IMG/VR virus record: IMGVR_UViG_2703718798_000005
Strand: one strand, 5' to 3'
Source: a virus
Taxonomy: Duplodnaviria; Heunggongvirae; Uroviricota; Caudoviricetes
DNA length: 49,477 nucleotides
The notes beneath the pieces are model-generated. The model worked only from the letters and a program-made list of their open reading frames with translations, did no database searches and had not been told where the DNA came from. Both the position numbers and the translations under genes were made by a program. How positions within the stretch are numbered: position 1 is the stretch's first letter; every line of letters starts with the position of its first letter. This document shows positions 16,358 to 40,775 of this stretch, in pieces.

Positions 16358-16359
16358 CG

Positions 16360-22280: not shown

Positions 22281-23405
22281 ATGAAGACGAAAAACACGCC
22301 CAAACTTGCTTATGCCATTCTGAATGCCATCAGCCTGTCCGCAGACGGGGACGGTGACTGGTGTCAGATCATGCCAGCCGGTCGGGTAAAGGCCCGTGAC
22401 GGTCGCCCGGAAAAACCGGCCGAGGGCTGGCTGATCAACCATGCAGCCGTTGAGCGCATGGTCTCCCGTGTTGTGGCGCTCAATCAGCCGGTGAAAATTG
22501 ACTACAACCACCAGACCCTGATTGAGGGACATCCGGCACCGGCTGCCGGTTTTGTGATGGCCTCACCGGAGAATTTTCGCTTCAGTGAAGAGCGAGGTTT
22601 CGAGGTGCGCCCGAAGTGGAACCCTCCGGCCCTTGAACATCTGCGTAATAACGAATTCCCCTGGTTTTCACCGGTGATTGGCTATGACGAGAGCACCGGC
22701 GAACCTGTCGAACTTCGGATGCTGGCTATTACCGGTGACCCCGGTCTGACCGGCATGAATCCTGTCGCCGCACTGTCGGCGGATGACCTTTATAACGCCT
22801 TAAACCCTCCTTTAAAGGATACCTCCATGAATGAGCAATTACGCCAGTTGCTGACGGCGCTCGGTCTGACCGTGGCTGACGGTGACGAATTTACGCCGGA
22901 GCTGGGCACGGCAGCGCTGTCTGCCCTCACCGGGATCAAAACCCGTGCGGATGCACACGACAACCTGAAAACACAGGTCGCCAGTCTGTCGGCAGAGCTG
23001 GAAACTGCAAAAGGCACACCGGCTGGCGGCAGTATTGACCTGACGAAATACGTGCCCGTTGAAACGTATAACGCCCTGCGTACCGAATACGTTGCGCTGT
23101 CGGCGCAGCACGGCAGCACCACGCTGGAGCAGTTGCTGGACAAGGCCGAGTCCGAAGGACGCATCTTCAAAAGTGAACGCGGCTATCTGGAACAACTGGG
23201 CGGGCAGATTGGCGTGGCGGCACTCTCTGCACAGCTTGACGCCCGCCAGCCGGTTGCGGCCCTGACCGGCCTTCAGACCGACACCGTGACCGTGCCGGAT
23301 AAAAAGACTGCCACCGCTGTGCTGTCGGCTGAAGATATCGCGGCCGCCAAACTGCTGGGTAAAACCGAAGCCGAGTTCCTGAAAATGAAAGAGGAAATGC
23401 AATAA
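22281..23405 (+). CDS. Mu I-like head protease/scaffold protein
   Basis: 374 aa; position upstream of the major head gene; Ala/Leu-rich scaffold-like C-terminal half. Confidence 0.7.
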   Translation: MKTKNTPKLAYAILNAISLSADGDGDWCQIMPAGRVKARDGRPEKPAEGWLINHAAVERMVSRVVALNQPVKIDYNHQTLIEGHPAPAAGFVMASPENFRFSEERGFEVRPKWNPPALEHLRNNEFPWFSPVIGYDESTGEPVELRMLAITGDPGLTGMNPVAALSADDLYNALNPPLKDTSMNEQLRQLLTALGLTVADGDEFTPELGTAALSALTGIKTRADAHDNLKTQVASLSAELETAKGTPAGGSIDLTKYVPVETYNALRTEYVALSAQHGSTTLEQLLDKAESEGRIFKSERGYLEQLGGQIGVAALSAQLDARQPVAALTGLQTDTVTVPDKKTATAVLSAEDIAAAKLLGKTEAEFLKMKEEMQ

Positions 23406-24352
23406 TGCCTACCCCGATTACACCGGCGATGATCACCGCCCTGATGACGGGCTACCGTTCTGATTTTCAGGCCGGGATGTCCATGGCCCCGTCGCAGTAC
23501 AAAAAAATTGCGATGACCGTGCCCTCCACATCGAAATCCAACACCTACGGCTGGCTGGGGCAGTTCCCGCAGTTCCGTGAGTGGATCGGCTCCCGCGTCA
23601 TCGAGAAGATGAAGGCCTATGGCTATGCCATCGTGAACAAAACCTTTGAAGGCACCGTCGCCATTAACCGCGATGACTTCGAAGACGATAACCTCGGTAT
23701 TTATTCCCCGTTGTTCCAGGAGATGGGGCGCGCTGCTGCGGCACAACCGGATGAACTGGTCTTTGCTGCTCTTCGTGACGGGATTAATGCGGCCTGCTAT
23801 GACGGCCAGAACTTCTTTGATACCGAACATCCTGTTTACCCCAAAGTGGATGGCTCCGGGGATGCGCAGATGGTCAGCAATATGTTTGTGGCAAAAACCG
23901 GCTCTGTCGGTGCACAGGCGGATTACAGCGGTCCTGCCTGGTATCTGCTCGACTGTTCACGCGCAATCAAACCGCTGATTTATCAGGATCGCCGTAAGGC
24001 TGAACTGGTTGCCCAGACCAAAGTCGATGAAGGTCGCGCATTCACCGATAACGAATTTGTGTTCGGTGCTTCCGCCCGTCGCAATGTGGGCTACGGCTTC
24101 TGGCAGATGGCCTACATGATGCAGTCACCGCTGACGCTGGATGCACTGTGGCACGGCTGGTCAGCCATGCGCGAATTTACCGCTGACGGTGGCCGCAAAC
24201 TCGGCATCAAACCCACCTGTATTGTTGTCCCCACCTCGCTGGAAAAACAGGCGGTGCAGCTGCTGGAGCGTGAACTGTTCGCAGACGGAAACGCAACCGT
24301 CTCTAACGAGATGAAGGGCAAGCTGGAGCTGGTTGTCGCGGATTATCTGTAA
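23405..24352 (+). CDS. Major head subunit (Mu T-like)
   Basis: 315 aa; position and size. Confidence 0.75.
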   Translation: MPTPITPAMITALMTGYRSDFQAGMSMAPSQYKKIAMTVPSTSKSNTYGWLGQFPQFREWIGSRVIEKMKAYGYAIVNKTFEGTVAINRDDFEDDNLGIYSPLFQEMGRAAAAQPDELVFAALRDGINAACYDGQNFFDTEHPVYPKVDGSGDAQMVSNMFVAKTGSVGAQADYSGPAWYLLDCSRAIKPLIYQDRRKAELVAQTKVDEGRAFTDNEFVFGASARRNVGYGFWQMAYMMQSPLTLDALWHGWSAMREFTADGGRKLGIKPTCIVVPTSLEKQAVQLLERELFADGNATVSNEMKGKLELVVADYL

Positions 24353-24395
24353 ACGGTGAGCCGGGTTTACGGCCCGGCCCCTGCGGAGGGCAAAT

Positions 24396-24800
24396 ATGAA
24401 TGAACATCACACTGTGGCAGCAACAGATGATTCAGGTCTTCAGGTCAGTGGTGACAATTCTGTCACGGTGCTGGCAGAAGTGCGTTGCAGTCGTTCGGCG
24501 TTTCGTCGTGCGGGGTTCCTGTTCACGCGTGGACGTCAGCAGGTTGAGGTCACCCCGGAGCAGCTTGCCCGACTGGAGGCGGAGCCATGCCTCACTGTGC
24601 GAATACTACAGACGTCTGCTGATGATGCGGGGAGCGTGGCGGGTGTGGTTCATGCAGTGGCCGGTACAGATTTAGCCGAAGCCGAAGCCGAAGCCGAAGC
24701 CGAAGCCGAAGCCGAAGCCGAAGCCGAAGCCGAAGCCGAAGCCGGACAGGATGCTCCCTGGAAAAAGACCGGTAACAAAGCGAAACAGGCCCGTGCATGA
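24396..24800 (+). CDS. Hypothetical head-region protein containing an (Ala-Glu)11 tract
   Basis: 134 aa ORF with RBS GGAGGG; contains an in-frame hexanucleotide repeat. Confidence 0.55.
   Translation: MNEHHTVAATDDSGLQVSGDNSVTVLAEVRCSRSAFRRAGFLFTRGRQQVEVTPEQLARLEAEPCLTVRILQTSADDAGSVAGVVHAVAGTDLAEAEAEAEAEAEAEAEAEAEAEAGQDAPWKKTGNKAKQARA
24675..24740 (+). repeat. Perfect tandem hexanucleotide repeat (GCCGAA)x11
   Basis: Read directly: 11 uninterrupted GCCGAA units followed by GCCG; encodes AEAEAE... Confidence 0.9.
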
Positions 24801-25216
24801 ATTACGCCACTGAAACCGATATGCGGGCGCGTTACCGCGAGGATTTGCTCAGGCCGTTACTGGCTGTGCCCCGTTCGGATGAGCCGGATACGCGCAAGCT
24901 GAACCGGGCGCTGACAGATGCGTCAGCCCTTATCGACAGCTATCTGTCCGCCCGTTACACGCTGCCGCTGGAGGTTATTCCGGCCGTTCTTGTTCAGCAC
25001 TGTTGCGCGATTGCCTTTTATTACCTGTGCGATCAGCGAGCCTCAGATCAGGCGCGTGACCGTTACCGTGAGGCGCTGGCCTGGCTGAAAGATGTCATGA
25101 ACGGCAATGTGCCGGTAGGTGTGGATACGAACGGAGCGGCCCCTGAATCCGGGGATTTACCACAGGTTCAGTCTGATGCAGCGGTATTCGGGCGCAACCA
25201 GAAGGGCTTCATATGA
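24797..25216 (+). CDS. Mu gp36-like protein (DUF1320-like), putative head-tail joining
   Basis: 139 aa; position after the major head gene. Confidence 0.5.
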   Translation: MNYATETDMRARYREDLLRPLLAVPRSDEPDTRKLNRALTDASALIDSYLSARYTLPLEVIPAVLVQHCCAIAFYYLCDQRASDQARDRYREALAWLKDVMNGNVPVGVDTNGAAPESGDLPQVQSDAAVFGRNQKGFI

Positions 25217-25773
25217 TTACGGAAACCGAACAGGCATACATCGCCCGTATCCGTGAGTATTTCGGGAATGAACTGGTGTCTGTTGACACGCATCCCGGCG
25301 ACTGGAACGACAGCGTACTGCGCACCATGCTGATTAACGCCCCGGCGATCTACGTTGCCTGGCTGGGTGCCGGTGAAGGCCGTACCCGTGGTCGCCTGGT
25401 CAGTCACTGGGTGTTCTACGTCATCGGCGACATGCTCAACGGGCGTGAGGCCAGCCGTCCCGGATTGTATCAGATTGTGGCCCGGCTGATTGCCGTGCTT
25501 AACGGCTTCAGAACAGAAAAAACCTCACCGCTTTACTTTGAAAAGGCGGTCAACGGTTACACCGAAACCCAGGCGGACAGTGGTGCGGTGATGTATGCGC
25601 TTTATTTCTCCTGCGAGGAAATGATCGCACCGCTGACCGATATCAGCTCGCTGGACGACTTCCTGCGTCATTACGAAACCTTTGTGGAGCCGCCCGGTAC
25701 GCCGCCGTTTGAGGCACATATTGATTTGCCGGGGAACACGACAACGGCGGTCGAACCGCCGGAGGAACTGTAA
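25213..25773 (+). CDS. Mu gp37-like protein (DUF1834-like)
   Basis: 186 aa; position. Confidence 0.5.
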   Translation: MITETEQAYIARIREYFGNELVSVDTHPGDWNDSVLRTMLINAPAIYVAWLGAGEGRTRGRLVSHWVFYVIGDMLNGREASRPGLYQIVARLIAVLNGFRTEKTSPLYFEKAVNGYTETQADSGAVMYALYFSCEEMIAPLTDISSLDDFLRHYETFVEPPGTPPFEAHIDLPGNTTTAVEPPEEL

Positions 25774-26019
25774 ATGAAAACCATCTTTATCAAACCCGCG
25801 CCGGGACGCCTGATTCGTGATCCCGACACAATGCGCCCGCTGGCACAGGAGGGGGAGGAAAAGCCCTTTACGCCGTTCTGGTGTCGGCGTCTTGATGACG
25901 GCGATGTCATTCAGGCTGAAAAAGCCGCTGAAGAGGCTCCGGCTGTATCTGCGGATGCAACGACTGCGACAGAAAAACCGGTCGCCCAACCGGCATCCGA
26001 TAAGGAGAAACCGCAATGA
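25774..26019 (+). CDS. Hypothetical protein (Mu gp38 position)
   Basis: 81 aa ORF immediately upstream of the sheath gene. Confidence 0.45.
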   Translation: MKTIFIKPAPGRLIRDPDTMRPLAQEGEEKPFTPFWCRRLDDGDVIQAEKAAEEAPAVSADATTATEKPVAQPASDKEKPQ

Positions 26020-27515
26020 TTAATTTTGACGGGATCGGTAATGACCGCCGTATACCGCTGATTGAGGTTGAGTTTAATAACTCCATGGCTGTCACCGGCA
26101 CTCCGGCACAGCGTCAGTGTGTGCTGCTGTTTGGTCAGGCGAGAATGAAAGAGAATGCCGTGGACGGTGCCGGTGTTCTGGATGTTCCGGTCAGGATCAC
26201 CCGTGCGTCTCAGGCAACAGAATTCTGGGGGCGCGGCTCCATGATTGCCCTGATGGTGGCGGAATTTATCGCCATCAATCCTGATGCTGAACTGTATGCC
26301 ATTGCTCAGGGGAGCGGCACCGGTCAGGCTCAGGCATGTCTCATGAATATAATTGGCACCGCCTCTCAGGATGGTGTTCTGCACATTTATATCGGCGGTC
26401 GGCGTTATCTGCTGGCTGTCACGAAGGGGCAGAAAGGTAAGGAGCTTATTGACGCTCTGGTCTCTGTTATTAATGCCGATGCTGATGCGCCCTTCAGTGC
26501 TTATGCAGGTCAGGTAGCAGATAACGCCAGCGGACTCAAGGGAAGTATGGGAATTAATGCCCGTTTTACCGGTGAATGTTCCGTACATGATATCCGTGTT
26601 AATTATCATGACGGAGAAACCACACCGGGTGGACTGACCATTGAACTTGGGTATCCCAAAACAAAAGCCACTAACCCGGATATCACCCGAAGCGTGGCGG
26701 GTATGGGCGATCGCCAGTACAACTATGTCGTCATGCCCTATAAGGATGATGCAAACCTGAAAATCATCAGTGATGAGCTTCTGAAACGCTGGGGACCGGC
26801 CAAAATGTCTGACGGTGTGCTGTGGATGGCGCATACCGGCACGTTTGGTGAGGTGCAGGCATTCGGGGCAAAACGCAATGATTTTCTGGCGACCTGCACA
26901 TTCATTCCCAAAGCCCCTGAACCGGATTACCTCTGGGCAGCGGCGGTCTGCGCCACCTGTGCGCCGTCTCTGGGGGCAGATCCTGCGCGTCCGCTTCAGA
27001 CGCTGGCGCTTCCGTCACGCATGGCCCCGGCCCCGGCCGATCGTCTGACGCGTGAAGAGCGTAACAGTCTGCTGTGGGGAGGGATTGCCACGGTCAGTGT
27101 GGCTGCCGGTGATGTGGTTCAGATCGAACGTCAGGTGACCATGTATCGCCAGAACGTGTACGGCGAAAGTGATCCCAGCTATCTGGATGTGGAAACCATC
27201 TACACCCTCTCCTGGCTGCGTTATTCCCTGCGTACTTTTATCACACAACGTTTTCCGCGCCATAAACTGGCTGATGACGGGACGCCCGTTCGTGCCGGTC
27301 AGAATATCGTGACGCCGGAGATCATGAAGCTTCAGTTAATTTCGCTGGGTGAAGAGTGGGTGGAACTCGGGCTGGTCGAAAATCTGGACACCTTTAAAAA
27401 GAATCTGCTTGTGGAGCGTAATGCGTCAGATCGAAACCGTCTTGACGTGTTATGCACGCCGGATCTGGTTAACCAGTTCCGCTTCCTGGCAGCACAGATC
27501 CGTTTCATTTTGTGA
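26016..27515 (+). CDS. Contractile tail sheath protein
   Basis: 499 aa; size and position upstream of tube and tape measure. Confidence 0.8.
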   Translation: MINFDGIGNDRRIPLIEVEFNNSMAVTGTPAQRQCVLLFGQARMKENAVDGAGVLDVPVRITRASQATEFWGRGSMIALMVAEFIAINPDAELYAIAQGSGTGQAQACLMNIIGTASQDGVLHIYIGGRRYLLAVTKGQKGKELIDALVSVINADADAPFSAYAGQVADNASGLKGSMGINARFTGECSVHDIRVNYHDGETTPGGLTIELGYPKTKATNPDITRSVAGMGDRQYNYVVMPYKDDANLKIISDELLKRWGPAKMSDGVLWMAHTGTFGEVQAFGAKRNDFLATCTFIPKAPEPDYLWAAAVCATCAPSLGADPARPLQTLALPSRMAPAPADRLTREERNSLLWGGIATVSVAAGDVVQIERQVTMYRQNVYGESDPSYLDVETIYTLSWLRYSLRTFITQRFPRHKLADDGTPVRAGQNIVTPEIMKLQLISLGEEWVELGLVENLDTFKKNLLVERNASDRNRLDVLCTPDLVNQFRFLAAQIRFIL

Positions 27516-27523
27516 GGTAAGGC

Positions 27524-27889
27524 ATGAGCGGAAAACAGTATCAGGGCACGGCCACTATCCGTGTGAACGGTCAGGAATACGAGACGCTTGAGGGGGCTAC
27601 ATTTTCTCCGTCAGGTTTTGAACGTGAAGTGGTGAAAGGCGCGAAAGTCTATGGTTACCGCCAGAAACCACGTGAAGCGACACTGGACTGCAAATTTCCG
27701 GCAGGCGGAGAAGGTTCACCAGCCGCCGATGAAATCAACAACTGGACTGCTGTCACTATCGAGTTTGTGGCGGATACCGGCGAAGTCCACATGATGACGA
27801 AGGCCTGGAGCAGTGAACCGGCCTCGCTTGACGGTGGCGGGGAGATCTCCGTGAAGTTCGCCAGCGCCACCAGTACCCGTGTTCAGTGA
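27524..27889 (+). CDS. Tail tube protein
   Basis: 121 aa following the sheath gene. Confidence 0.75.
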   Translation: MSGKQYQGTATIRVNGQEYETLEGATFSPSGFEREVVKGAKVYGYRQKPREATLDCKFPAGGEGSPAADEINNWTAVTIEFVADTGEVHMMTKAWSSEPASLDGGGEISVKFASATSTRVQ

Positions 27890-27903
27890 TCAGGAAAAAT
27901 AAA

Positions 27904-28380
27904 ATGACCACACGTAAGAAAAAAACGGCAGTTTCCGAGGCAGCCGTGATGGAGGCAATCCGGGAAGCACTTGAGGGGGCTGATCCACGCACTGCCGGGC
28001 TGACAGAGCAACTGGCAAAGGGATATGTGGATCTGCTTGATGGTCTGCCGTTTGGTGAGACCCGTGAATATCGTGTCACGTTCCGGGAACTGACAGCGAA
28101 AGACAGTATTGACGCAGAAGCAGAAGCCGAGCGCGTGGTGGAGACAAACAATGGCCCGATGCTGATAGCGTCTCCGTCGTTACGCGGTGTTGCACTGCTG
28201 CGCCGTCAGATTGCCGCAGTGGGAGACATTGAAGGTCCGTTGTCACCCCGTCAGATTGGACAGTTAAGCGAGCGCGATCTCTCCCGCCTGATGGCAGCGG
28301 TCAGCCTGCTGGATACCGCGCTTGCCGGAAAGCTGGCAGCTGACCGGGGGCGATCAGGCGCAGTGTCGGGATCAGATTGA
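27904..28380 (+). CDS. Tail assembly chaperone, putative (possible frameshift extension to 28504)
   Basis: Start moved to ATG 27904 (RBS AGGA); lies between tube and tape measure genes; the neighbouring frame is open from about 28292 to 28504. Confidence 0.5.
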   Translation: MTTRKKKTAVSEAAVMEAIREALEGADPRTAGLTEQLAKGYVDLLDGLPFGETREYRVTFRELTAKDSIDAEAEAERVVETNNGPMLIASPSLRGVALLRRQIAAVGDIEGPLSPRQIGQLSERDLSRLMAAVSLLDTALAGKLAADRGRSGAVSGSD

Positions 28381-28506
28381 AGAAGCGGCAATTATCCTGG
28401 GGATGGTGACAAAAAGCGGTCCGGAATGGGCGCTTAACCTCCCCCTGTCGCAACTTTACCGGCACTGCCGACAGACAGAAAAAATCATCAGAACGAAGCA
28501 GTAAGT

Positions 28507-30582
28507 ATGGCCCGAAATCTCAGAGCATCTCTGATAGTTGATTTGCTCGGCAATATCTCAGCCAAATCCCGCCAGTGGTCACAGGAGCTGGGGGCATTCT
28601 CACGCTCCGGCCAGGCGGGGCTGGGTGGCCTGGGAAATGCTGCCCGCCGTGCCGGGCAGGAAACAGATGTACTCGGAAGCAGGATGCAGCGCACGCTGGC
28701 CGGGGTGCGGGGCAGTATCCGCCATGTCACTTCTGATTTTGACCGTCTTCAGGGCAGTATTACCGGCACCATCGGGCGGATCAGCAATCTTTACGGAATG
28801 CTGGCCGGTGGTGCTGCTGTATATGGCTTTAACCGGGGATTTATTCGCCCGGCAGCGGAGATGGAAACCTATATGATTCGCCTGAACTCCCTTTACAAAG
28901 GGGATCGGGCGAAAACTGATGATGTCCGCAGGTGGGCAATACAGAATGCGAAGGAAACCACCTGGGGGCTGGCTGGCGTCATGCAGGAATATACGTCCAG
29001 TCTGGGCTTTGGTATGAGTGACAGGGAGGCCCGAAATTTTGTCACCATGCTTCAGGATCAGGGTGCCGTGGGCGGCTGGTCACTGTCCGATGCACAGGGG
29101 GCATCCCTGCAACTGAAACAGATGTATGCAAGAGGCAGTATTCAGGCAGCGGATGCAAATATTCTTGCCACCTACGGCATTAATGCCTACCGCGTGCTGG
29201 CTGATCGTCTGGGTGTGGACCAGAAAGTGGTCAGAAAACTTGGTGAAAAAGGGCTGCTTGGGCCGGACAGTATTCGCCTGTTATTTCAGACGCTGGCGGA
29301 ACAGGCCAGGGGAGCACAAAAGGACGCAATGAATTCCTGGAGTGGCCTGACGGCCATGATGGGTGACGTCTGGGATCAGTTTGCCCGGGATGTGATGGAC
29401 AGTGGGCCATTTGAAAAACTGAAGGGTAATCTCAGGGGATTTCTTTCATGGGTTGACAGTGCCAAATCTGATGGCAGTTACCATTCCCTGGCGGAAAGTA
29501 CGGCATCAGCCATGAACCAGGGCTTTGAGTATGCCCGTGATGCAGTGACAGGGTTTTATCAGGCGATCAGAAAGGTACGCGACACGCTTCAGGCTCTGCG
29601 GGATGCGGGCTATGGTGATGCGCTGGATCGCATTGGTCAGGGGGCACAGACCGCCGCGAAATACCTGCTGTACATGTATCTCGCCACCCGTGCCCTGAAA
29701 ATGGCGCGGGCTGTCGGAACGGGGATTATACGTCCGGGTGCTGCATTGCTGGGATACGGATTATCAGCGGCGGCCTTCCTTACCTCACCTTTCCGGCGCT
29801 CTCCTCCGGCCGGAACACCACCAGGCACATCTCAGGGACGAGGGCAACGTTTTATAAACTTTCTTACCGGGGTAAATCCGGCAGCCGTTCAGCCAGTACT
29901 TGTAACAAACTGGCCCACAGGAGGACTGTCCGGCACCGGCGCGACCGATACATCCTCAGGCGGACGTCAGGGGCGGGGCCGCAGGAAACGCGGACCGGGG
30001 CGCGGAAGACCGGTCACGCCTCCCCTGCCACCGTCCCCAGTGCCACCGTCTCCCTCTTCTGGTGGGGCAGGGTTCTGGGGGCGCATGATGGGGCGCGCCG
30101 GTGGGTTACTTTCGTCTGTCGGTAGCCGCATGGGGCTGGGGCGTTTCTCCGGCTTTTTCCGCAGTGCCGGTGGACTGGCCGGCCGGCTGGGTGGAGGTGC
30201 CCTGTGGGCTGGCGCGATGGCAGCCCCGGTTCTGCTGGATGGCAGCGCCAGTGCCACAGACAAGGGAGAAGCGGTCGGCTCTCTTGCAGGCAGTATTGCC
30301 GGTGGTGCGCTGGGGGCGGCAGCCGGACCTGTGGGGATTGCCATTGGTTCTACGGTGGGCAGCTATCTCGGTAACTATCTGGGGGGATGGCTGACTGAAG
30401 CCTGGCAGAAATTACGGGGCAGTGATGATGAAAGCAGTGGACAGGCGGTACAAAAAGCCTCTGCCCGTGTGGAGCTGGTTGCCCCGGAAGGGTGGCAGGC
30501 TCGCAGTATTGATATTGATGACACGTCCGGTCACGGACTGGATGTGAATGTCTGGAACGGAGGGAATTATGGCCTCTGGTGA
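28507..30582 (+). CDS. Tail tape measure protein
   Basis: 691 aa; Gly/Ala-rich C-terminal region; follows the chaperone. Confidence 0.8.
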   Translation: MARNLRASLIVDLLGNISAKSRQWSQELGAFSRSGQAGLGGLGNAARRAGQETDVLGSRMQRTLAGVRGSIRHVTSDFDRLQGSITGTIGRISNLYGMLAGGAAVYGFNRGFIRPAAEMETYMIRLNSLYKGDRAKTDDVRRWAIQNAKETTWGLAGVMQEYTSSLGFGMSDREARNFVTMLQDQGAVGGWSLSDAQGASLQLKQMYARGSIQAADANILATYGINAYRVLADRLGVDQKVVRKLGEKGLLGPDSIRLLFQTLAEQARGAQKDAMNSWSGLTAMMGDVWDQFARDVMDSGPFEKLKGNLRGFLSWVDSAKSDGSYHSLAESTASAMNQGFEYARDAVTGFYQAIRKVRDTLQALRDAGYGDALDRIGQGAQTAAKYLLYMYLATRALKMARAVGTGIIRPGAALLGYGLSAAAFLTSPFRRSPPAGTPPGTSQGRGQRFINFLTGVNPAAVQPVLVTNWPTGGLSGTGATDTSSGGRQGRGRRKRGPGRGRPVTPPLPPSPVPPSPSSGGAGFWGRMMGRAGGLLSSVGSRMGLGRFSGFFRSAGGLAGRLGGGALWAGAMAAPVLLDGSASATDKGEAVGSLAGSIAGGALGAAAGPVGIAIGSTVGSYLGNYLGGWLTEAWQKLRGSDDESSGQAVQKASARVELVAPEGWQARSIDIDDTSGHGLDVNVWNGGNYGLW

Positions 30583-31914
30583 CGGTCGTGGTGCGTTCCG
30601 TGGTGTGCCGTTCCTCGTCTGGCGTGAGCAGCGCGAACGTGGTGGGCGAAACATTGTCCGTCGGGAATATCCGTTACGGGAAACCGGTGGGGCAGACGAT
30701 CTGGGACCTAAACTGACTGAATTTACGTTCAGTGTACTTGTGATGGGGGATGATGTTCAGACACAGCGAAATCGTCTGCGTGATGCCCTTCGTGCTCCCG
30801 GTGCCGGGGAGCTGCTTCACCCGGATTACGGCACGTTAAATGTGCTGATAAACAGCTTTGAAAGTCGTTATAACGCCGCTGAACAGGGCGTGGTTGAGTT
30901 CACCATTAATGTCACGCCGGTAAGTGATGATACCGCACCTGCTGTCACACAGGACACGGCCGCCATTCTGGAGCAGAAGAGTACCACCGCGCTCGGGCAG
31001 GTTTTTGAAACCCTGGAAGCGGGCTGGACGGTGATCTCTGACGGAATGCACGATGTCCAGGCAATGACCGAAACCATCAGTGATAAGGTGTCCGCCCTGG
31101 AAAATGCCGTTTCCGGCATGGGGATTGTACAGGATATCAGTGCCTTTACTGCCACGTTCACGGCGCTGAAAGGGAATGCCACGGCATTACTGACAGCACC
31201 TTCCCGCATGGCCTCATCTTTTGCGGGGCTTTTCAGTGCCCTGATCACCCTGCCATCGCTGCCGTCACTGTCTTCAGGAGGCCTGAATACCCGGCCGGCA
31301 GTATCGGCCGGACGACATCCGCCGTCTCTCAGGGAATGCCGCAACTGTACAGGACATTATCTTCCCTGCGTTACGTGCTGGATGAGCAGGATAATCCGCA
31401 GACTCTCATCGGTCTGACACCGGCAGCACAAAAGAATATTCGTCTGATACGGGCGGTAATGCAGAGTGCTGCCGTGGTGGCCCAGGCACAGACCGTGGGA
31501 AAACTGCTGGATCAGGTTCTCAGTCAGGAAACCCTGCCGGACAGTGACGCAGCCCACCGTACCTGGCCTGTCTGGCTGGAAAGTTCAGTTGATCTTCAGC
31601 GCATTAACCGTGACTTAAGCGAAGCGCTCGAACGGCAGGTGATGACACTGTCCGGGCAGGGGTATACCGCCACGGCGCTGACGCTTCGTGATGCCAGACT
31701 GGCACTGACAGAGGATCTGAATACACGGGGAGTTCAGCTACCCGGTGCAACAGTAGTGACTGTACGTACCACCGAGCCTGCACTGGTGACCCTGTACCGT
31801 GCCACCGGGAACAGTACCGGCTGGCAACGTTTTGTGCGCCGTAACGGTATTGTTGATCCGCTGTTCATTCCCGGAGGCCATTCAGTGGAGGTGATTAGTG
31901 AGCAGCAGGGTTGA
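30569..31914 (+). pseudogene. DNA circularization protein (Mu N/gp43-like), apparently frameshifted
   Basis: N-terminal part in frame 2 (30569-31417), C-terminal part in frame 1 (open from about 31084, ATG at 31336, to 31914); the frame-2 tail is Cys-rich and implausible while frame 1 reads like protein. Confidence 0.55.
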
Positions 31915-33022
31915 ACTGTATCTGGGCGGTGAGATTTTTTCCGGCTGGCTGACGGTGAGTGTTCGTCGCTCTCTTGAACATCTGGCGGGCTCCTTTGAAC
32001 TGGGGGTAATGATGCCCGGTGTACGCCTTCCGTCATCCGTCCGTGCCGGTCAGTCTCTGGAATTGCGCATTGACGGTCAGCCTGTGATCACTGGCTGGCT
32101 GGATCAGGTCCGGCAGCGCATCAGCGCCACGCGTTTTCAGATCACGCTCAGCGGACGGGATAAAACCGGTGACCTGGTGGACTGTTCAGCCATTCATCCG
32201 GGCAGCCAGTGGAGGAACCGCACGCTGGAGCACATTGCTTCAGATTTGTGTGCTCCGTTCGGGGTCACGGTGCGCTGGCAGGTAAATGATGCAACGGCAG
32301 CCCGGCCCTTTTCCACCTTCACACTGGAAAATTCAGAAACCGTGGCAGATGCGCTGACACGGGCCGCGAGACACAGAGGCGTCCTGGTAACCAGTAATGC
32401 CGCCGGTGAACTGGTTTTCACTCAGGCCGGCAGTCAGCGTGGCGACACGCTGACGCTGGGCGAAAATCTGCTGGATTTGGATCACAACGTGGATCACCGT
32501 CTGCGCCACAGTGAATACCGTGTACGGGGGCACGGGCGTGGTGGTGGTCATGCCGGGGATGCACTGACAGCCGGAACGCTGGCCGCACCAGTTGGTACGG
32601 TGACAGACAGTGCCATCCACCGTTACAGACCGAAAATTGTGCTGGCGGATCATGCTGTTGATGCAGACGGTGCACGCCAGAGGGCTGTCCGGGAAATGCG
32701 CCGGGCGGTTGCCCGCTCTGTGCGCCTGACAGCCACCGTGCGGCACTGGTTTCGGGAGAACGGCCAGTTGTGGGATATCAACCTGCTGACGGCTGTCACG
32801 GCTCCCCGCACCGGAGTGGAAGAGCGTGATCTTCTTGTCTGTCAGGTGGAGTTTTCGCTGGATGCAAATCACGGCGAAACCACCCGTCTGATTCTGGCAC
32901 CCCGTGACGGCTTTATTGTTCCGGCAGAGCCGGGAAACAGCGGAAGCGGAAATGCGGGTGACGTGGACGCCTTCGTGCGGGCACAGATGAAAAAACAGGG
33001 GATTAAATTCAATGATGAATGA
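31898..33022 (+). CDS. Baseplate hub / late control D-like tail protein (Mu gp44-like)
   Basis: 374 aa; position after the tape measure and N genes. Confidence 0.7.
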   Translation: MSSRVELYLGGEIFSGWLTVSVRRSLEHLAGSFELGVMMPGVRLPSSVRAGQSLELRIDGQPVITGWLDQVRQRISATRFQITLSGRDKTGDLVDCSAIHPGSQWRNRTLEHIASDLCAPFGVTVRWQVNDATAARPFSTFTLENSETVADALTRAARHRGVLVTSNAAGELVFTQAGSQRGDTLTLGENLLDLDHNVDHRLRHSEYRVRGHGRGGGHAGDALTAGTLAAPVGTVTDSAIHRYRPKIVLADHAVDADGARQRAVREMRRAVARSVRLTATVRHWFRENGQLWDINLLTAVTAPRTGVEERDLLVCQVEFSLDANHGETTRLILAPRDGFIVPAEPGNSGSGNAGDVDAFVRAQMKKQGIKFNDE

Positions 33023-33626
33023 CGAAGTCATCAGCCGCCTTCTGGCCCCCGTGATGCGGGGTGTTCGTCTGCTGTTCGGGCGTGGTGTACTGACCGGCAC
33101 AACGGACACGCTGAAAATCCAGAATGTGCAAATCACCGGTATGGATGGTGAAACCTTTGATGACGTTGAACGCCCCCAGCAGTACGGGCAAATCAGCGTC
33201 CCCCTGCCTGGTGCGGAAGTTTTTCTGGCCTGTGCTGGCGGACAACGGGATCAGGCCGTGGTGCTTGTGGTGGAAGACCGCCGCAGTCGCCCGACCGGAC
33301 TTACCGCCGGAGATACCGGCGTGTATCACCATGAGGGGCACCGTATACGTCTGACAAAGAACGGCCGGATCATTGTGACCTGTAAGACACTGGAGATTTA
33401 CGCCGATGAAGGTGTTCAGGTGGATACACCGGAGGCTCACTTTACCGGTAATATCACAGTGGATAAGAACCTGCATGTCAAAGGCAATGTGTCCATTGAC
33501 GGCACCGGAAGATCACAGGGGGCGTTCACGATGTCCGAAGCGGTTATTGCCGGGATCACCTATTCAGGTCATGTGCATCACGATAACGGTGAAGGCAGCA
33601 AAACGGGAGGACCAGAGAATGGCTGA
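33012..33626 (+). CDS. Baseplate assembly/spike protein (Mu gp45-like)
   Basis: 204 aa; position. Confidence 0.7.
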   Translation: MMNDEVISRLLAPVMRGVRLLFGRGVLTGTTDTLKIQNVQITGMDGETFDDVERPQQYGQISVPLPGAEVFLACAGGQRDQAVVLVVEDRRSRPTGLTAGDTGVYHHEGHRIRLTKNGRIIVTCKTLEIYADEGVQVDTPEAHFTGNITVDKNLHVKGNVSIDGTGRSQGAFTMSEAVIAGITYSGHVHHDNGEGSKTGGPENG

Positions 33627-34056
33627 TATTGCTGTCGTCTGGGATCAGGGTTGTGGTTCCCTGCAACTGAACGGCGCAGATCTTCTGACGGATAACAGCC
33701 TGCTGACTGCGGTCATTATTTCACTGTTTACGGACAGGCGGGCGCTGGATTCCGATGAAATCCCTGACGGCACCCGTGACCGTCGGGGATGGTGGGGAGA
33801 CAGTTTCCGGGAGCGCCCCATTGGCTCCCGTCTCTGGCTGTTAAGCCGTGAAAAGACGCTGTCCTCCGTGGTCAGCCGTGCACAGGCCTATGCTGATGAA
33901 GCGCTGGCGTGGCTGCATAAAAGCGGTGCTGCCACATCCGTGGTATGTCATGCCATGCGTGTGGGGCATGATCGCCTTTCGCTTTCCGTGAAAATCACCC
34001 TGCCGGACGGAAGCAGACATCCGATGATTTTTTATGCTGATATGAAGGGGGAATGA
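33619..34056 (+). CDS. Baseplate protein (Mu gp46-like)
   Basis: Start moved to ATG 33619 overlapping the preceding stop; position. Confidence 0.65.
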   Translation: MADIAVVWDQGCGSLQLNGADLLTDNSLLTAVIISLFTDRRALDSDEIPDGTRDRRGWWGDSFRERPIGSRLWLLSREKTLSSVVSRAQAYADEALAWLHKSGAATSVVCHAMRVGHDRLSLSVKITLPDGSRHPMIFYADMKGE

Positions 34057-35138
34057 TGCCTTATCAGCCCTTACCACTGGCGCAACTGATCACACAGACA
34101 CAACAGGATATCAGCCAGCGCCTGCCCGGTTCGCAGCCGGGCGTGAATGAAACCACCCTGAATGCCATTGCGTATGCACTGGCGGGTCTGTCAGCACAGG
34201 AGCATGAACATCTGGCCTGGATCTCCCGGCAGATAATTCCGACAGAAGCTGATGAAGCCGAACTCCTGAAACACTGCGCATTCTGGGGTGTCATCCGTAA
34301 ACCGGCTTCCCGCGCTGACGGACCGGTACAACTGATGCTGACCACGGATGCAGGGATCACGGAAGGCGTACTCCTTCAGCGAAGCGATGGTGTTGTGTAC
34401 CGCATCACCGGCTCTGCGACCGGAAAAGCCGGAACACTGAATGTTAATGTGGAGGCGGAAAGTGCGGGGCGCGCCGGAAATACCCCGACCGGAACCCGCC
34501 TGTCCTTTATCACGCCACAGGCGGGCATCAACCAGACAGCCACGGTTACCGGCACGGGACTCACCGGTGGTGCGGATGTGGAAACGGTGCCGGAGTTGCT
34601 GTCCAGGCTGGTATTCCGGGTACAGAACCCGCCATCAGGGGGAACACAGTATGATTTTGAACGCTGGGCACGGGAAGTACCGGGCGTGACGCGGGCATGG
34701 TGTAAGCCTGAATGGCCTGAGGCGGGTAGTGTTGGTGTGACTTTTGTTCAGGATAATAACCCTGACATTTTCCCCGGAGAAGGTGATGTGAAGCGGGTGG
34801 CGGATTATATCCGCAGTCATGATGATCCGGCGACGGGCCAGCCCGTTGGTCAGCCACTTGGGCCGACAATCAGCGTGTTTAAGCTGACCAATAAGCCGGT
34901 GGCGTTTGAGATCAGGATTGTACCCAAAACGCCGGAAAATCAGGCTGCCGTAAAACAGGCATTAACGGACCTGCTTTATAACGAATCGCGGCCGGGTGGA
35001 CTTGTATTGCCTTCATCATTCTGGCGGGCTGTTGCAGGGGTGAAAGGACTGGAGGATTTTGAAGTTCGCAGTCCGCTGAAGTCCGTGATGGCCGGAGATA
35101 CAGAGTTGCTGACCGTGGGGGAAATCACATGGCTGTAA
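34053..35138 (+). CDS. Baseplate J-like protein (Mu gp47-like)
   Basis: 361 aa; position and size. Confidence 0.75.
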   Translation: MMPYQPLPLAQLITQTQQDISQRLPGSQPGVNETTLNAIAYALAGLSAQEHEHLAWISRQIIPTEADEAELLKHCAFWGVIRKPASRADGPVQLMLTTDAGITEGVLLQRSDGVVYRITGSATGKAGTLNVNVEAESAGRAGNTPTGTRLSFITPQAGINQTATVTGTGLTGGADVETVPELLSRLVFRVQNPPSGGTQYDFERWAREVPGVTRAWCKPEWPEAGSVGVTFVQDNNPDIFPGEGDVKRVADYIRSHDDPATGQPVGQPLGPTISVFKLTNKPVAFEIRIVPKTPENQAAVKQALTDLLYNESRPGGLVLPSSFWRAVAGVKGLEDFEVRSPLKSVMAGDTELLTVGEITWL

Positions 35139-35689
35139 CCCTGACCCCGCATCAGCGCGCCCTGTTGCAGTTGCTGCCTGACGGGCTGGCATGGGATAAG
35201 CGGCCGTCATCCGTTCTTGCGGCTTTGTGCCTGGGCCTCAGTCATTCCACGGAGCGTGTTTCCTGGACCGGTAACCAGATGCTGGCAGAACGTTTTCCTG
35301 ATTCATCCCGTCTGCTGCTGGAAGACTGGGAGCGTTATCTGGGGTTACCGGAATGTGATATGACCGGCGCAACCATTCAGGAACGTCAGCGTTATGCAGG
35401 GAATAAATACCGGATGAAACCCTCTCTTAACCGTGAATTTTATATCCGGTTTGCGGCAGAGTTTGGTTATGAAATAGATATTCAGCCATCACCGGATTCA
35501 CAGTGGGTCAGTATTGTCACGATAAACAGTGAAACCGGCTACCGGAATATGAATGTGCTGGATGATATTCTCACCCCGCTGCGTATTTATGAGGGTGGTG
35601 CGCTGGAATGTATTCTGAACCGTTATAAGCCTGCATGGCAGACGTTTATTTACGTGTATGCAAACAGTCACAAAGAGGAGAATATTTAA
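35129..35689 (+). CDS. Tail protein (Mu gp48-like, DUF2313-like)
   Basis: 186 aa; position before the tail fibre gene. Confidence 0.65.
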   Translation: MAVTLTPHQRALLQLLPDGLAWDKRPSSVLAALCLGLSHSTERVSWTGNQMLAERFPDSSRLLLEDWERYLGLPECDMTGATIQERQRYAGNKYRMKPSLNREFYIRFAAEFGYEIDIQPSPDSQWVSIVTINSETGYRNMNVLDDILTPLRIYEGGALECILNRYKPAWQTFIYVYANSHKEENI

Positions 35690-36600
35690 TGTTCCATGTT
35701 GATAATAATTCCGGCGTGGCGAATATGCCTGAACTGGCTCCGGCGCAGAGTAATACCACCACCTGGTTTACCGAAGGTGACGGACAAAAAGGTATCAGCT
35801 GGATTGGTCAGGACTGGCTGAATATTCTCCAGGCCGAACTGCTGAATATTCTGGCTGAAGCCAGTATTCAGCCGGATAAGGCGCAGTTAAACCAGCTTAC
35901 GCTGTCCATTAAAGCCATTATCGCTGCGAATGCCTTTTCCCGGAAAAACAACCTGAAAGAAATTGCTGATGCCGGTGCGGAAGCCCAGCGTCTGGCCCGT
36001 GGTTATCTTGGTCTGGGGACGCTTGCCACAAAAAACAGTCTTGGTCCCGCTGACGTTAATGCCCTGGCGAAGGATCAGAACCTTGCCGACCTGGAGAATG
36101 CGGAAACCGCCCGTAATAATCTGGATGTTTACAGCAGGAGCGAAGGTGATAACCGTTACCTGCGCAGGGACCAGAATGGCGCGGATATCCAGGACAAAGG
36201 AACCTTTATCGATAACCTCGGTTTACGGGAAACGGTAAATAAGGCTGCTGATGCCCTGCCATCGGCTGGAACCGCCGTGGCAGCAAACAGACTCGCCACC
36301 CCAAGAAATATTAATGGTGTTCCTTTTGACGGAACGCTGGATATCAACATCACGTCAGGAATGACGCAGTCAACCGCAGATGGCCGGTATGTACAGAATG
36401 TTCAGCTTGGAGCACAGAGCTATCATTCACCCGGAGGCAATGAAATGTCATGGAATTACAGCGCACCTTCCGGTTGTATGCTTTCCGGTATTAACGTGCA
36501 GGAAACCGGCTCCCGGTCTGCGGACAATATCGGTGGGGTCTATTATCGCCCGGTTCAGATTTATATTAATAATACCTGGAGAACGGTAAGTTCAGTGTAA
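35689..36600 (+). CDS. Tail fibre protein S (constant part plus currently fused variable tip)
   Basis: Start at ATG 35689 overlapping the preceding stop; crosses the left recombination site at about 36206-36231; last roughly 120 aa lie inside the invertible segment. Confidence 0.8.
   Translation: MFHVDNNSGVANMPELAPAQSNTTTWFTEGDGQKGISWIGQDWLNILQAELLNILAEASIQPDKAQLNQLTLSIKAIIAANAFSRKNNLKEIADAGAEAQRLARGYLGLGTLATKNSLGPADVNALAKDQNLADLENAETARNNLDVYSRSEGDNRYLRRDQNGADIQDKGTFIDNLGLRETVNKAADALPSAGTAVAANRLATPRNINGVPFDGTLDINITSGMTQSTADGRYVQNVQLGAQSYHSPGGNEMSWNYSAPSGCMLSGINVQETGSRSADNIGGVYYRPVQIYINNTWRTVSSV
36206..36231. repeat. Left recombination site (gix-like) inside the tail fibre gene
   Basis: TTATCGATAACCTCGGTTTACGGGAA, close to the Mu gix sequence as recalled. 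Confidence 0.7.
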
Positions 36601-36634
36601 ACCACAGAAAAGGGTGCTGAATGCACCCTCTGAA

Positions 36635-37156
36635 TTATTCCGGTTTTTCCGGCCAGGGAATCGCCTGGTAATGCCCCTCACTGGCAATATCATTAAAGTG
36701 CATTTCTTTAAGCTGTCGGATATACGCCATCCAGCGCGTCAGCTGTAATTTATTTTCATCGCTAATCATGTCCAGTTTTAATTCTGTTTTCCAGTCATCC
36801 ACGGTTTCGTTGGCTTCCTGGAGCAGCGATGAGCGACGCTTTTCAGCAACCGTCTTCCAGTTTACCGGCACCTTTGATATCAGGCCATCAGAAAACTGCC
36901 AGTTACCGTCAATATTCACACCTTCCGGCAGTTCGTCCACTTCAACAACAGTAAAACCTGCCGGATATAAAGCAGAGACATCTTCAGCAACAGAGCAGAT
37001 AATACCCGTTACAGGCGAAATACAGAGTTTGTATTTCTTTGTAAAAAGCGGGATAGATTCATAAAAATCCCTTCCGTCCTCACTCTGGAAATACTGAACA
37101 TCCTCACCATAGGGTTTGTCTTTCGGGTAATATCGTTTGACATTAATCAGTTGCAT
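36635..37156 (-). CDS. Tail fibre assembly protein (Tfa/U-like)
   Basis: Start moved to internal Met (MQLINVKRYY); C-terminal ...QAIPWPEKPE typical of Tfa chaperones; inside the invertible segment. Confidence 0.75.
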   Translation of the reverse strand: MQLINVKRYYPKDKPYGEDVQYFQSEDGRDFYESIPLFTKKYKLCISPVTGIICSVAEDVSALYPAGFTVVEVDELPEGVNIDGNWQFSDGLISKVPVNWKTVAEKRRSSLLQEANETVDDWKTELKLDMISDENKLQLTRWMAYIRQLKEMHFNDIASEGHYQAIPWPEKPE

Positions 37157-37277
37157 AAACATCACCATGTAAATCAATGATAAAAACAGGAATAATACTA
37201 TCGCCATATACAGGCAATGCTTGTCTGAAATAACGCATATTTCAGATGCTGGCTGCTGTGTGCTATGCCCCCGTTAA

Positions 37278-37649
37278 TTAAATACTTGCAGCGGATACCC
37301 AATGCCCATTAATACAATATTGTATCTGTCTGTAATAAACACGGTCATCACCACCACGCATTTCCCAGTCTCCGTCAGTCTTAAAACCGGTAATCACATT
37401 TCCTGATGACAGGGAGTAATTATATTCCAGTCCGCCGCTTAATGCCTGCGCTCCCAGTCTTACCCCTGTAACATAACGCTGATTGGCCGTTGATTCCGGC
37501 ATTCCTGACGTAATGTTTATATCCTGCGTGCCGTCAAAGGCGACACCATTGATTCTGCGGGCATTTGCCAGCCTGCTTGCTGCAACAGCCGTACCGTTTG
37601 ATGGCAGGGCATTCGCGGCCCTGTTTACCGTATCCCGTAAACCGAGGTT
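37278..37649 (-). CDS. Alternative tail-fibre C-terminal segment (promoterless until inversion)
   Basis: Minus-strand frame reads NLGLRDTVNRAANALPSNGTAVAASRLA..., parallel to NLGLRETVNKAADALPSAGTAVAANRLA... of the expressed tip; a stop lies immediately outside the right recombination site. Confidence 0.7.
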   Translation of the reverse strand, partial: NLGLRDTVNRAANALPSNGTAVAASRLANARRINGVAFDGTQDINITSGMPESTANQRYVTGVRLGAQALSGGLEYNYSLSSGNVITGFKTDGDWEMRGGDDRVYYRQIQYCINGHWVSAASI

Positions 37650-37657
37650 TCAGGGAT
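37632..37657. repeat. Right recombination site (gix-like), inverted
   Basis: ATCCCGTAAACCGAGGTTTCAGGGAT, inverted relative to the left site. Confidence 0.7.
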
Positions 37658-37711
37658 GCCGTATATCTACTTTAAAAGGCTTTTCCACCTCTTTTTAAGG
37701 AAGGTAAATAC

Positions 37712-38272
37712 ATGCTGATTGGCTATATACGCGTATCAACAAATGACCAGAACACCGGTTTACAAAGAAATGCGCTGGAATGTGCAGGATGTGAGCAGAT
37801 TTTTGAAGACAAAATGAGTGGTAAAACGACACAGCGGCCGGGACTGAAGCGGGCACTGAAGAAACTAAAACCCGGTGACACGCTGATGGTCTGGAAACTG
37901 GACAGGCTGGGGCGCAGTATGCGCCACCTTGTTGCGCTGACAGATGAATTACAGCAACAGGGGATAAATTTTCGTAGTCTTACTGACAACATTGATACGT
38001 CAACCCCCATGGGGCGCTTCTTTTTTCACATAATGGGTGCGCTGGCAGAAATGGAGCGTGAATTAATTGTCGAACGGACACGGGCTGGTCTTGCAGCTGC
38101 CCGTGAAAGGGGACGAACCGGCGGCAGACCCCGCCGTCTCACGCAGGAACAATACGAGCAGGTCGGGCGTTTACTGGCCGGGGGTGTCAGTCGAAGACAG
38201 GTGGCACTTATTTTTGATATCGGTCTTTCAACCCTTTATCGTTATTATCCTGCGAGCGTTTCGGAAAAATAA
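37712..38272 (+). CDS. gin: Serine DNA invertase (Gin/Hin/Cin family)
   Basis: 186 aa; N-terminal MLIGYIRVSTNDQN catalytic-Ser motif; C-terminal HTH; adjacent to the invertible segment. Confidence 0.9.
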   Translation: MLIGYIRVSTNDQNTGLQRNALECAGCEQIFEDKMSGKTTQRPGLKRALKKLKPGDTLMVWKLDRLGRSMRHLVALTDELQQQGINFRSLTDNIDTSTPMGRFFFHIMGALAEMERELIVERTRAGLAAARERGRTGGRPRRLTQEQYEQVGRLLAGGVSRRQVALIFDIGLSTLYRYYPASVSEK

Positions 38273-38371
38273 GACGCTCTCTTTGTTGGGCCTTTACTGA
38301 ATTAACGCAAAATGGCGTTTATCGGTCTGTGGATATGATAATTCAGTTTATTCAGGAACAGGCTGATTATT

Positions 38372-40740: not shown

Positions 40741-40775
40741 TAACGGGGCAATATACCTGCAAAAGGAGAATATTC

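What the first reader, a model, noticed from the sequence alone, without database searches (positions are those of the whole stretch)
31084..31417. Frameshift inside the DNA-circularization (N-like) gene: defective prophage or sequencing error
The N-terminal part of the gene (from 30569) is in one frame and ends at 31417 after an implausible Cys-rich tail (...RECRNCTGHYLPCVTCWMSRIIRRLSSV). The neighbouring frame is open from about 31084, reads like protein and continues to 31914. The combined length (about 450 aa) matches a single Mu N-sized protein. The shift most likely lies near the CCGGCCGG run at about 31290-31330. If real, the prophage probably cannot make infectious particles although every other module is intact.
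Basis: seen in the sequence. Interest (0 to 1): 0.45.

Follow-up and report, generated by a model that had tools for sequence, protein, structure and literature searches.

The report
Four-base deletion breaks prophage tail gene
A Mu-like prophage in an E. coli contig has lost four bases (CGGT) in its N/gp43-type tail-tube-initiator ("DNA circularization") gene, which splits the gene in two; this is an ordinary, one-off inactivating frameshift (or, less likely, an assembly error), not a new genetic arrangement.

Summary
The N-like gene starts at 30569, reads in one frame to a stop at 31415-31417 with a 39-residue out-of-frame tail, and continues in the -1 frame (open from 31087) to 31914. The cause is four missing bases (CGGT) between 31296 and 31297. 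Restoring them gives the intact 449-aa "DNA circularization protein" WP_000146122.1, and the rest of the 1701 nt compared is identical to the best-matching E. coli records. The deletion allele was found nowhere else: not in 196 E. coli complete-genome records carrying the gene, not in three contig collections, and the truncated protein is on record only from this contig. Against the closest prophage (E. coli 95_0274) it is the only indel in 24.7 kb. The other prophage genes present in an O157:H7 relative are single-frame and essentially full-length. Full-length single ORFs are the rule in relatives, Mu N included, and there is no slippery heptamer or homopolymer, so programmed recoding is rejected. 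The product loses about 205 C-terminal residues. Mu N amber mutations are annotated further downstream, at codons 410 and 417 of 491. Most likely this is a recent real null mutation that leaves a tail-defective prophage; an assembly artefact cannot be excluded without reads. Interest is low.

The parts
3168..42659 (+). Mu-like (transposable) prophage that carries the gene. Ends are TGTAACC...GCGCTAT. It is flanked by the 5-bp duplication ATGGG (3163-3167 and 42660-42664) and is inserted in an Rhs/PAAR T6SS toxin gene.
   Evidence: blastn against the O157 prophage and against the empty site in E. coli TB06051.
28507..30582 (+). Tape measure protein gene, immediately upstream. It overlaps the N start by 14 nt.
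   Evidence: Pfam TMP_3. 100% aa identity to WP_000113523.1.
30569..31297 (+). 5' part of the N/gp43-like gene, natively encoded residues 1-243. It covers the tube-like N-terminal domain and the first helices of the helix-rich domain.
   Evidence: Pfam DNA_circ_N, E 1.2e-25. Strong SD (GGAGGG, -10 kcal/mol) before 30569 but not before 30548. Identical to the intact relative up to codon 243.
31296..31297 (+). Deletion junction. CGGT is missing here: intact ACCCGGCC-CGGT-GGCAG, window ACCCGGCC-GGCAG. The lost bases are the third base of the Pro243 codon plus the Gly244 codon.
   Evidence: Pairwise alignment. It is the only indel in 24,660 nt against E. coli 95_0274.
31298..31417 (+). Out-of-frame tail of 39 residues (AVSAGRHPPSLRECRNCTGHYLPCVTCWMSRIIRRLSSV) plus the TGA stop at 31415-31417.
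   Evidence: The tail has no counterpart in any homologue.
31297..31914 (+). 3' part of the N/gp43-like gene in the -1 frame (residues 245-449 of the intact protein): the second half of the helix-rich domain and the conserved C-terminal LysM-like module. No credible ribosome-binding site of its own.
   Evidence: Candidate starts 31336, 31375 and 31459-31495 have SD duplex energies of +1.3 to -4.9 kcal/mol, against about -10 for N, gp44, gp46 and J.
31898..33022 (+). Baseplate hub gene (Mu gp44/P-like), immediately downstream and intact.
   Evidence: Pfam GpP-like_1st, Gp44-like_2nd and GpP_4th. 100% aa identity to WP_000098807.1.

Best explanation
The window is a whole draft contig of an E. 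coli strain carrying a Mu-like transposable prophage (3168-42659) of the type common in O157:H7 and other E. coli. Its N/gp43 gene encodes the tail-tube initiator, which in Mu is also the injected 'DNA circularization' protein. The gene has lost four bases (CGGT) between 31296 and 31297. Shown: the loss shifts the frame by -1. The gene now encodes 243 native residues plus 39 junk residues and stops at 31417. The remaining 205 codons lie in another frame without a usable ribosome-binding site. The lesion is private to this record and is the only indel against the nearest relative. Inferred: it is a recent, genuine loss-of-function mutation in a G+C-rich, indel-tolerant linker of the protein. 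The truncated protein keeps the tube-like beta-barrel domain but lacks half of the helix-rich domain and the LysM-like C-terminus, which clamp the baseplate wedges onto the hub. Baseplate and tail assembly should therefore fail. After induction the prophage could still transpose, replicate, package DNA and lyse the cell, but would release non-infectious, tail-defective particles.
For: - **Cause:** a 4-nt gap with otherwise 100% identity; restoring it gives the intact 449-aa protein.
- **Private to this record:** 0 of 196 E. coli complete-genome records have the deletion; 195 show 96.8% identity, i.e. the 4-nt gap, and one shows 80-90%. The 27-mer across the junction is absent from viral, metagenome and genome contig collections, while the intact 31-mer occurs 8 times. 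The exact truncated product is recorded from one contig only, which is this window.
- **Assembly quality:** against E. coli 95_0274 there are 92 SNPs and exactly one indel in 24,660 nt, and only 2 SNPs in 25,000-42,659. The other prophage genes with a counterpart are each in a single frame. Flank alignments to TB06051 have 0-2 gaps.
- **Sequencing type:** the contig is the full record (49,477 nt). Both ends lie in multi-copy sequence, with median 3 and 6 places per genome, as expected for a short-read draft. Four-base non-homopolymer consensus errors are rare in such data (established knowledge).
- **Function:** GenBank X06796 annotates two Mu N amber mutations at nt 1415 and 1438, codons 410 and 417 of 491, further downstream than this break, which aligns to about residue 250 of Mu N. 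Cryo-EM of Mu shows gp43 as a hexameric tube initiator whose helix-rich/LysM domain holds the wedges (PMC11915804).
- **Family is active when intact:** Sp18 of O157 Sakai is predicted intact and its DNA is packaged (PMC2669165). I did not test that Sp18 is the same prophage type as this one.
Against: - No read data are available, so a local assembly or consensus error cannot be excluded.
- The site is G+C-rich, and in the deleted form it makes a perfect 7-bp hairpin (CCGGCCG/CGGCCGG). Such contexts can give sequencing problems.
- Other public assemblies show frameshifted copies of this gene that look like error-type indels (P0011, P0030), so artefacts in this gene do occur.
- There is no microhomology at the deletion ends that would give a simple slippage mechanism.
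- The phenotype is inferred from Mu, at 33-35% identity; it was not tested for this phage.
Confidence: 0.68

Rival explanations
1. Assembly or consensus artefact: the strain's real gene is intact and the four bases were lost during sequencing or assembly at a G+C-rich hairpin-forming site.
For: The allele is seen in a single record only. Everything else in the tail module is identical or nearly so to relatives, so nothing else points to decay. The local sequence forms a 7-bp G+C hairpin. Frameshifted copies of this gene exist in other public assemblies (P0011, P0030).
Against: It is the only indel in 24.7 kb. The other prophage genes that have a counterpart in the O157 relative are each in one frame. 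Error-prone assemblies show several indels per gene, as P0011 and P0030 do. The loss is 4 bases and not a homopolymer length change. The contig ends at repeats, like a short-read draft, where such consensus errors are rare. A single occurrence is equally expected for a recent real mutation.
Confidence: 0.28
2. Functional split gene: the two ORFs are both translated and the fragments assemble into a working baseplate. This would resemble phages in which the tube initiator and a small LysM/BH1a protein are separate polypeptides.
For: The break falls in a poorly conserved, length-variable Pro/Gly/Ser-rich stretch (alignment). That stretch is predicted as coil between helices (residues 227-252; a low-confidence model). 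Separate tube-initiator and BH1a proteins exist in Pam3, XM1 and E217 (PMC11915804).
Against: No candidate start of the 3' ORF has a Shine-Dalgarno match (+1.3 to -4.9 kcal/mol against about -10 for neighbouring genes). No relative shows this arrangement. The 5' product carries 39 junk residues with five Cys. The split is inside the helix-rich domain, not at the tube-domain/LysM boundary seen in naturally split systems.
Confidence: 0.03
3. Programmed recoding: a -1 ribosomal frameshift or transcriptional slippage makes the full-length protein from the two frames.
For: The direction of the frame change (-1) is the one used by programmed frameshifts. Tail gene clusters are known to use recoding, in the tail assembly chaperone gene upstream of the tape measure gene (established knowledge).
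Against: There is no X XXY YYZ heptamer in the 0 frame and no homopolymer of 5 or more anywhere in the 31087-31417 overlap. All relatives encode one continuous ORF. The arrangement is explained fully by a 4-base loss.
Confidence: 0.01

Closest known systems
E. coli prophage 'DNA circularization protein' WP_000146122.1 (Mu-like prophages of O157:H7 and other E. coli, e.g. NZ_CP066748.1, NZ_CP074785.1)
   Same: Nucleotide sequence identical over 1701 nt apart from the 4-base gap. Same neighbours: tape measure upstream, gp44-like hub downstream.
   Different: The relatives have one 449-codon ORF. The window has 282 codons (243 native) plus a detached 205-codon remainder.
Bacteriophage Mu N protein / gp43 (64-kDa virion protein; tube initiator; PDB 9KI1)
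   Same: Collinear over residues 10-446, 33-35% identity. PDB match E 5e-79. Pfam DNA_circ_N. Same position in the tail gene cluster. In Mu it is a tube-like domain plus a helix-rich domain with LysM (PMC11915804).
   Different: Mu N is 491 aa with a longer central insert. DNA-end binding and circularization have been shown only for Mu. Mu's gene is intact.
Frameshift-type defects in resident prophages (e.g. the 'defective prophage pool' of E. coli O157 Sakai, PMC2669165)
   Same: A single small indel inactivates one morphogenesis gene in an otherwise complete prophage.
   Different: In Sakai the Mu-like prophage Sp18 is the one predicted intact. Here a Mu-like prophage carries the lesion, and it is a single-record allele rather than a lineage-wide one.
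Programmed -1 frameshift of tail assembly chaperone genes (lambda G/GT type)
   Same: Two overlapping ORFs in a tail gene cluster related by a -1 shift.
   Different: That signal is conserved across relatives, has a slippery heptamer and lies upstream of the tape measure gene. None of these holds here.

Membership tests
Mu N / gp43 tube-initiator ('DNA circularization protein', Pfam PF07157) | N-terminal DNA_circ_N (tube-like) domain | tested here: met
   PF07157, E 1.2e-25, 90 bits against a cutoff of 21, residues 14-99 of the 289-aa ORF.
Mu N / gp43 tube-initiator ('DNA circularization protein', Pfam PF07157) | Full-length collinearity with Mu N, including the conserved C-terminal (LysM-like) module, in one polypeptide | tested here: not met
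   Both halves are present and collinear but in two frames. The single polypeptide exists only after restoring CGGT. The locus is therefore a disrupted member, a pseudogene if the sequence is correct.
Mu N / gp43 tube-initiator ('DNA circularization protein', Pfam PF07157) | Gene position between the tape measure gene and the gp44-type baseplate hub gene | tested here: met
   TMP_3 at 28507-30582 and GpP/Gp44 domains at 31898-33022. Same order in annotated relatives and in Mu.
Mu N / gp43 tube-initiator ('DNA circularization protein', Pfam PF07157) | Virion protein injected with the DNA that binds and circularizes its ends | not testable with these tools
   Known for Mu only (PMC11915804 and the work it cites); needs biochemistry.
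Programmed -1 ribosomal frameshift site | Two-ORF arrangement conserved in relatives | tested here: not met
   0 of 196 E. coli records. Single-piece tblastn matches in Mu, D108, SfMu and Yersinia phages. Nearly all of the 120 listed homologues are 446-474 aa.
Programmed -1 ribosomal frameshift site | Slippery heptamer X XXY YYZ (or a slippage-prone homopolymer) in the overlap | tested here: not met
   None in 31087-31417.
Frameshift pseudogene in a prophage | Out-of-frame indel relative to intact orthologues, with sequence on both sides otherwise conserved | tested here: met
   4-nt deletion and 100% identity on both sides.
Frameshift pseudogene in a prophage | The lesion is present in the organism's DNA, not only in the assembly | not testable with these tools
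   No reads are available. Indirect indications only (single indel in 24.7 kb; non-homopolymer 4-nt loss).
Mu-type transposable prophage | MuA/MuB genes, random insertion with a 5-bp target duplication, no att-site integrase | tested here: met
   MuA 95% and MuB 99.7% aa identity to annotated relatives. ATGGG is duplicated at both ends against the empty site in TB06051. Relatives sit at different chromosomal sites: between flgF and flgG in NZ_CP066748.1, and next to a disrupted cas3 gene in NZ_CP074785.1.

The most novel reading that the evidence does not exclude
The frameshift is real and the two fragments both function. The prophage would then make a baseplate from a naturally split tube initiator (a tube-domain fragment plus a separately translated helix/LysM fragment). 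That would be a snapshot of the domain fission that separates tube initiator and BH1a/LysM proteins in other myophages.
Probability: 0.03. Interest if true: 0.35.

Novelty: already known. Interest (0 to 1): 0.1.

Why it matters
It matters little beyond annotation. If the deletion is real, this lysogen carries a Mu-like prophage that should still transpose, replicate and lyse but cannot build tails. It is then a freshly grounded prophage caught with a single lesion, which may be useful as a natural N-null allele of the E. coli Mu-like prophage family. For annotation pipelines, the two ORFs (282 aa and 179-192 aa) should be merged and flagged as one frameshifted pseudogene rather than called as two proteins. 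If the deletion is an artefact, the record simply needs correction.

Tried and rejected
- **Programmed frameshift or transcriptional slippage:** rejected. There is no slippery heptamer or homopolymer and no conservation of the split.
- **Independent translation of the 3' ORF:** no SD at any candidate start.
- **Other assemblies of the same strain or insertion:** I looked up the insertion-specific truncated Rhs product and the truncated N product. Both are recorded only from this contig. A third look-up, of the repressor, was given with a one-codon coordinate error and returned nothing; it is not informative.
- **Short homologues P0011 (342 aa) and P0030 (328 aa) as possible natural split forms:** the alignment shows each drifts out of and back into frame more than once, at other positions. 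These are different lesions, probably assembly errors, and not the same arrangement.
- **AlphaFold model of the intact protein:** mean pLDDT was 44.8. That is too poor for fold comparison, so I used only its secondary-structure outline and ran no fold search.
- **Slippage or quasi-palindrome mechanism for the deletion:** there is no microhomology at the ends. The deletion lengthens a 6-bp inverted repeat to 7 bp and shortens its loop from 13 to 7 nt, but folding energies are not unusual (z -0.83 and +0.11). No mechanism is claimed.
- **Büttner et al. 2016 (Mu baseplate assembly):** not held in the library.

Full report
**The observation**

The ORF list and the sequence show an ORF from 30548 to 31417. 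Its Shine-Dalgarno-supported start is 30569: the duplex energy is -10 kcal/mol there and -4.1 at 30548. The neighbouring frame is closed by two stops at 31081-31086, is open from 31087, and runs to the stop at 31912-31914. Pfam places a DNA_circ_N domain (E 1.2e-25) in the first ORF. It finds nothing in the second. It identifies the flanking genes as the tape measure gene (28507-30582) and a Mu gp44/P-type baseplate hub gene (31898-33022). So the coordinates, the two frames and the gene identity are all as described.

**The cause**

A megablast of 30400-32100 against 5,426 complete E. coli genomes found 215 records. The best are 99.8% identical over 1705 nt of subject against 1701 nt of query. 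Aligning the window to one of them (O157:H7 ECP19-2498) shows a single difference. Four bases, CGGT, are absent between window 31296 and 31297: intact ACCCGGCC-CGGT-GGCAG, window ACCCGGCC-GGCAG.

The intact gene encodes 449 aa and is annotated 'DNA circularization protein', WP_000146122.1. In the window the first 243 codons are native. Gly244 and the reading frame are lost, 39 unrelated residues follow, and residues 245-449 are encoded from 31297 in the -1 frame. The lesion is four bases rather than one.

**Is the arrangement shared?**

It is not.
- A 120-nt query centred on the junction matched 196 E. coli records. 195 are at 96.8%, which is the 4-nt gap, one is at 80-90%, and none is at 99% or above.
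- The 27-mer spanning the junction is absent from the viral, metagenome and genome contig collections. The corresponding intact 31-mer is present in 8 viral contigs.
- The exact 282-aa product is on record from one contig only, a 49,477-nt record that is the window itself.
- In phage genomes the protein matches Mu, D108, SfMu and Yersinia Mu-like phages as one piece covering residues 10-446 at about 35% identity.
- Nearly all of the 120 listed homologues, out of 630 found in a 5.8-billion-protein collection, are 446-474 aa.
- Two short homologues on long contigs (P0011, P0030) have different, multiple frame changes. They look like error-type indels, not the same split.
- The overlap has no X XXY YYZ heptamer and no homopolymer of 5 or more.

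Programmed recoding and a conserved two-gene arrangement are therefore rejected.

**Context**

The window is an E. coli chromosomal contig.
- **Insertion site.** Its flanks match E. coli TB06051 at 99.5-100%. In that strain the site is empty. The prophage occupies 3168-42659, is flanked by a duplicated ATGGG, and interrupts an Rhs/PAAR type VI toxin gene.
- **Gene integrity.** I translated 56 annotated proteins of the O157 prophage and compared them with the window. 52 of the other 55 align full-length or nearly so in a single frame. In the variable early region, two match only partly and one has no match. Only the N-like protein is split, into frames 2 and 1. Repressor and Ner are merely diverged, at 33-43% identity.
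- **Nearest relative.** Against the closest prophage found (E. coli 95_0274), window 18000-42659 has 92 substitutions and exactly one indel, which is this deletion. From 25,000 to 42,659 there are only two substitutions.

So 'every other module is intact' holds as far as sequence can show.

**Consequence**

Cryo-EM of Mu (PMC11915804) shows gp43/N as the hexameric tail-tube initiator. An N-terminal tube-like beta-barrel domain seeds the tube. A helix-rich domain containing a LysM module reaches down between the wedge helical bundles and stabilises the wedge-hub connection. The same protein is the injected DNA-circularization protein.

The intact E. coli protein matches the deposited Mu chain (9ki1) at E 5e-79 over residues 5-446. 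The break aligns to about residue 250 of Mu N. GenBank X06796 annotates two Mu N amber mutations at nt 1415 and 1438, codons 410 and 417 of 491. Both lie further downstream than the break here. N amber mutants being non-viable is from my own knowledge of Mu genetics, not from a tool result.

A low-confidence structure prediction of the intact protein (mean pLDDT 44.8) gives only an outline. There are beta strands to about residue 117, long helices at 130-226, a coil at 227-252 that contains the break, further helices at 253-389, and a small alpha/beta C-terminus. This agrees with the family alignment, where the region around the break is Pro/Gly/Ser-rich and variable in length.

None of the possible starts of the 3' ORF has a ribosome-binding site. 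The most likely outcome, by inference, is a null allele. The prophage could still transpose, replicate, package and lyse, but would make tail-defective, non-infectious particles.

**Real mutation or artefact?**

This cannot be settled without reads.

For a real mutation:
- It is the only indel in 24.7 kb against the nearest relative, and the other prophage genes compared are unbroken. The assembly is therefore not indel-prone.
- The loss is four bases and not a homopolymer miscount.
- The record is a complete contig whose ends fall in multi-copy sequence: vgrG/Rhs on the left and an ISAs1-family element on the right. That is the signature of a short-read draft, in which such consensus errors are rare.

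For an artefact:
- The allele is known from a single record.
- The site is G+C-rich, and in the deleted form it is a perfect 7-bp hairpin.
- Frameshifted copies of this gene occur in other assemblies.

I put the real mutation at about 0.68 and an artefact at about 0.28. Either way the lesion must be recent, because no other decay has accumulated in the tail module.

**Comparison with what is known**

The gene is a disrupted member of the Mu N/gp43 family. The N-terminal domain, the collinearity of both halves and the gene position are all met. The single-polypeptide criterion is not met.

The phenomenon is a single frameshift in a morphogenesis gene of an otherwise complete prophage, which is commonplace. 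The O157 Sakai prophage pool is the classic example, although its Mu-like prophage Sp18 is predicted intact and its DNA is packaged (PMC2669165). I did not test whether Sp18 is the same prophage type as this one.

**Verdict**

Nothing here is new in kind. The only non-trivial reading left open is that the two fragments work as a split tube initiator, like the separate tube-initiator and BH1a proteins of other myophages. I rate that at about 3%.

Noticed in passing
window 3163-3167 and 42660-42664; 1067-3172 and 43093-45441: The Mu-like prophage is inserted inside an Rhs/PAAR 'restriction endonuclease fold toxin' gene of a type VI secretion vgrG locus, with the 5-bp duplication ATGGG. E. coli TB06051 has the uninterrupted 1,599-aa gene, i.e. 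the empty site. The T6SS effector is therefore disrupted in this strain.
   Followed up: partly
window 3168-3200 and 42625-42659: The prophage termini read TGTAACC... and ...GCGCTAT in both this copy and the O157 copy. The right end does not finish with the canonical Mu ...CA. In the O157 copy the flanking 5-mers (GATCG / AATCG) match at only 4 of 5 positions, so the exact right boundary could be off by one base.
   Followed up: no
window 3440-4401 versus 12482-42659: Mosaicism. Repressor and Ner are only 33-43% identical to those of the O157 relative, while the late region is 98-100% identical. Against E. coli 95_0274 the 92 SNPs cluster in 18-25 kb (portal, head morphogenesis, protease, capsid), with only 2 SNPs in 25-42.6 kb.
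   Followed up: partly
window about 41060-41530, minus strand: RefSeq flags a 'hypothetical protein, frameshifted' pseudogene at the corresponding place in both relatives examined (L002 4272-4738; L015 23165-23631). The window has the same two short ORFs (41060-41227 and 41356-41526). The alignment to L015 shows only one SNP in the 41-kb bin. This looks like a family-wide old lesion, or an unrecognised feature, between the DUF826 gene and com.
   Followed up: no
window about 21510-21630: RefSeq annotates a 'tRNA-OTHER' between the head-morphogenesis and virion-morphogenesis genes in both relatives. ARAGORN finds no tRNA anywhere in the window.
   Followed up: partly
protein hits P0002, P0006, P0008-P0010 and many Salmonella hits: Many public records name this tail protein family 'multidrug DMT transporter permease', an evident propagated misannotation. 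P0007 (727 aa) is a chimera of a DUF935 portal-like protein and the N-like protein.
   Followed up: no
window 1-560 and 47900-49477: Both contig ends lie in multi-copy sequence (vgrG, and an ISAs1/ISEc1-family element). The window equals the full 49,477-nt record, which suggests a short-read draft contig rather than an excised provirus. TB06051 additionally has an IS1 inside the ISAs1 element that the window lacks.
   Followed up: partly
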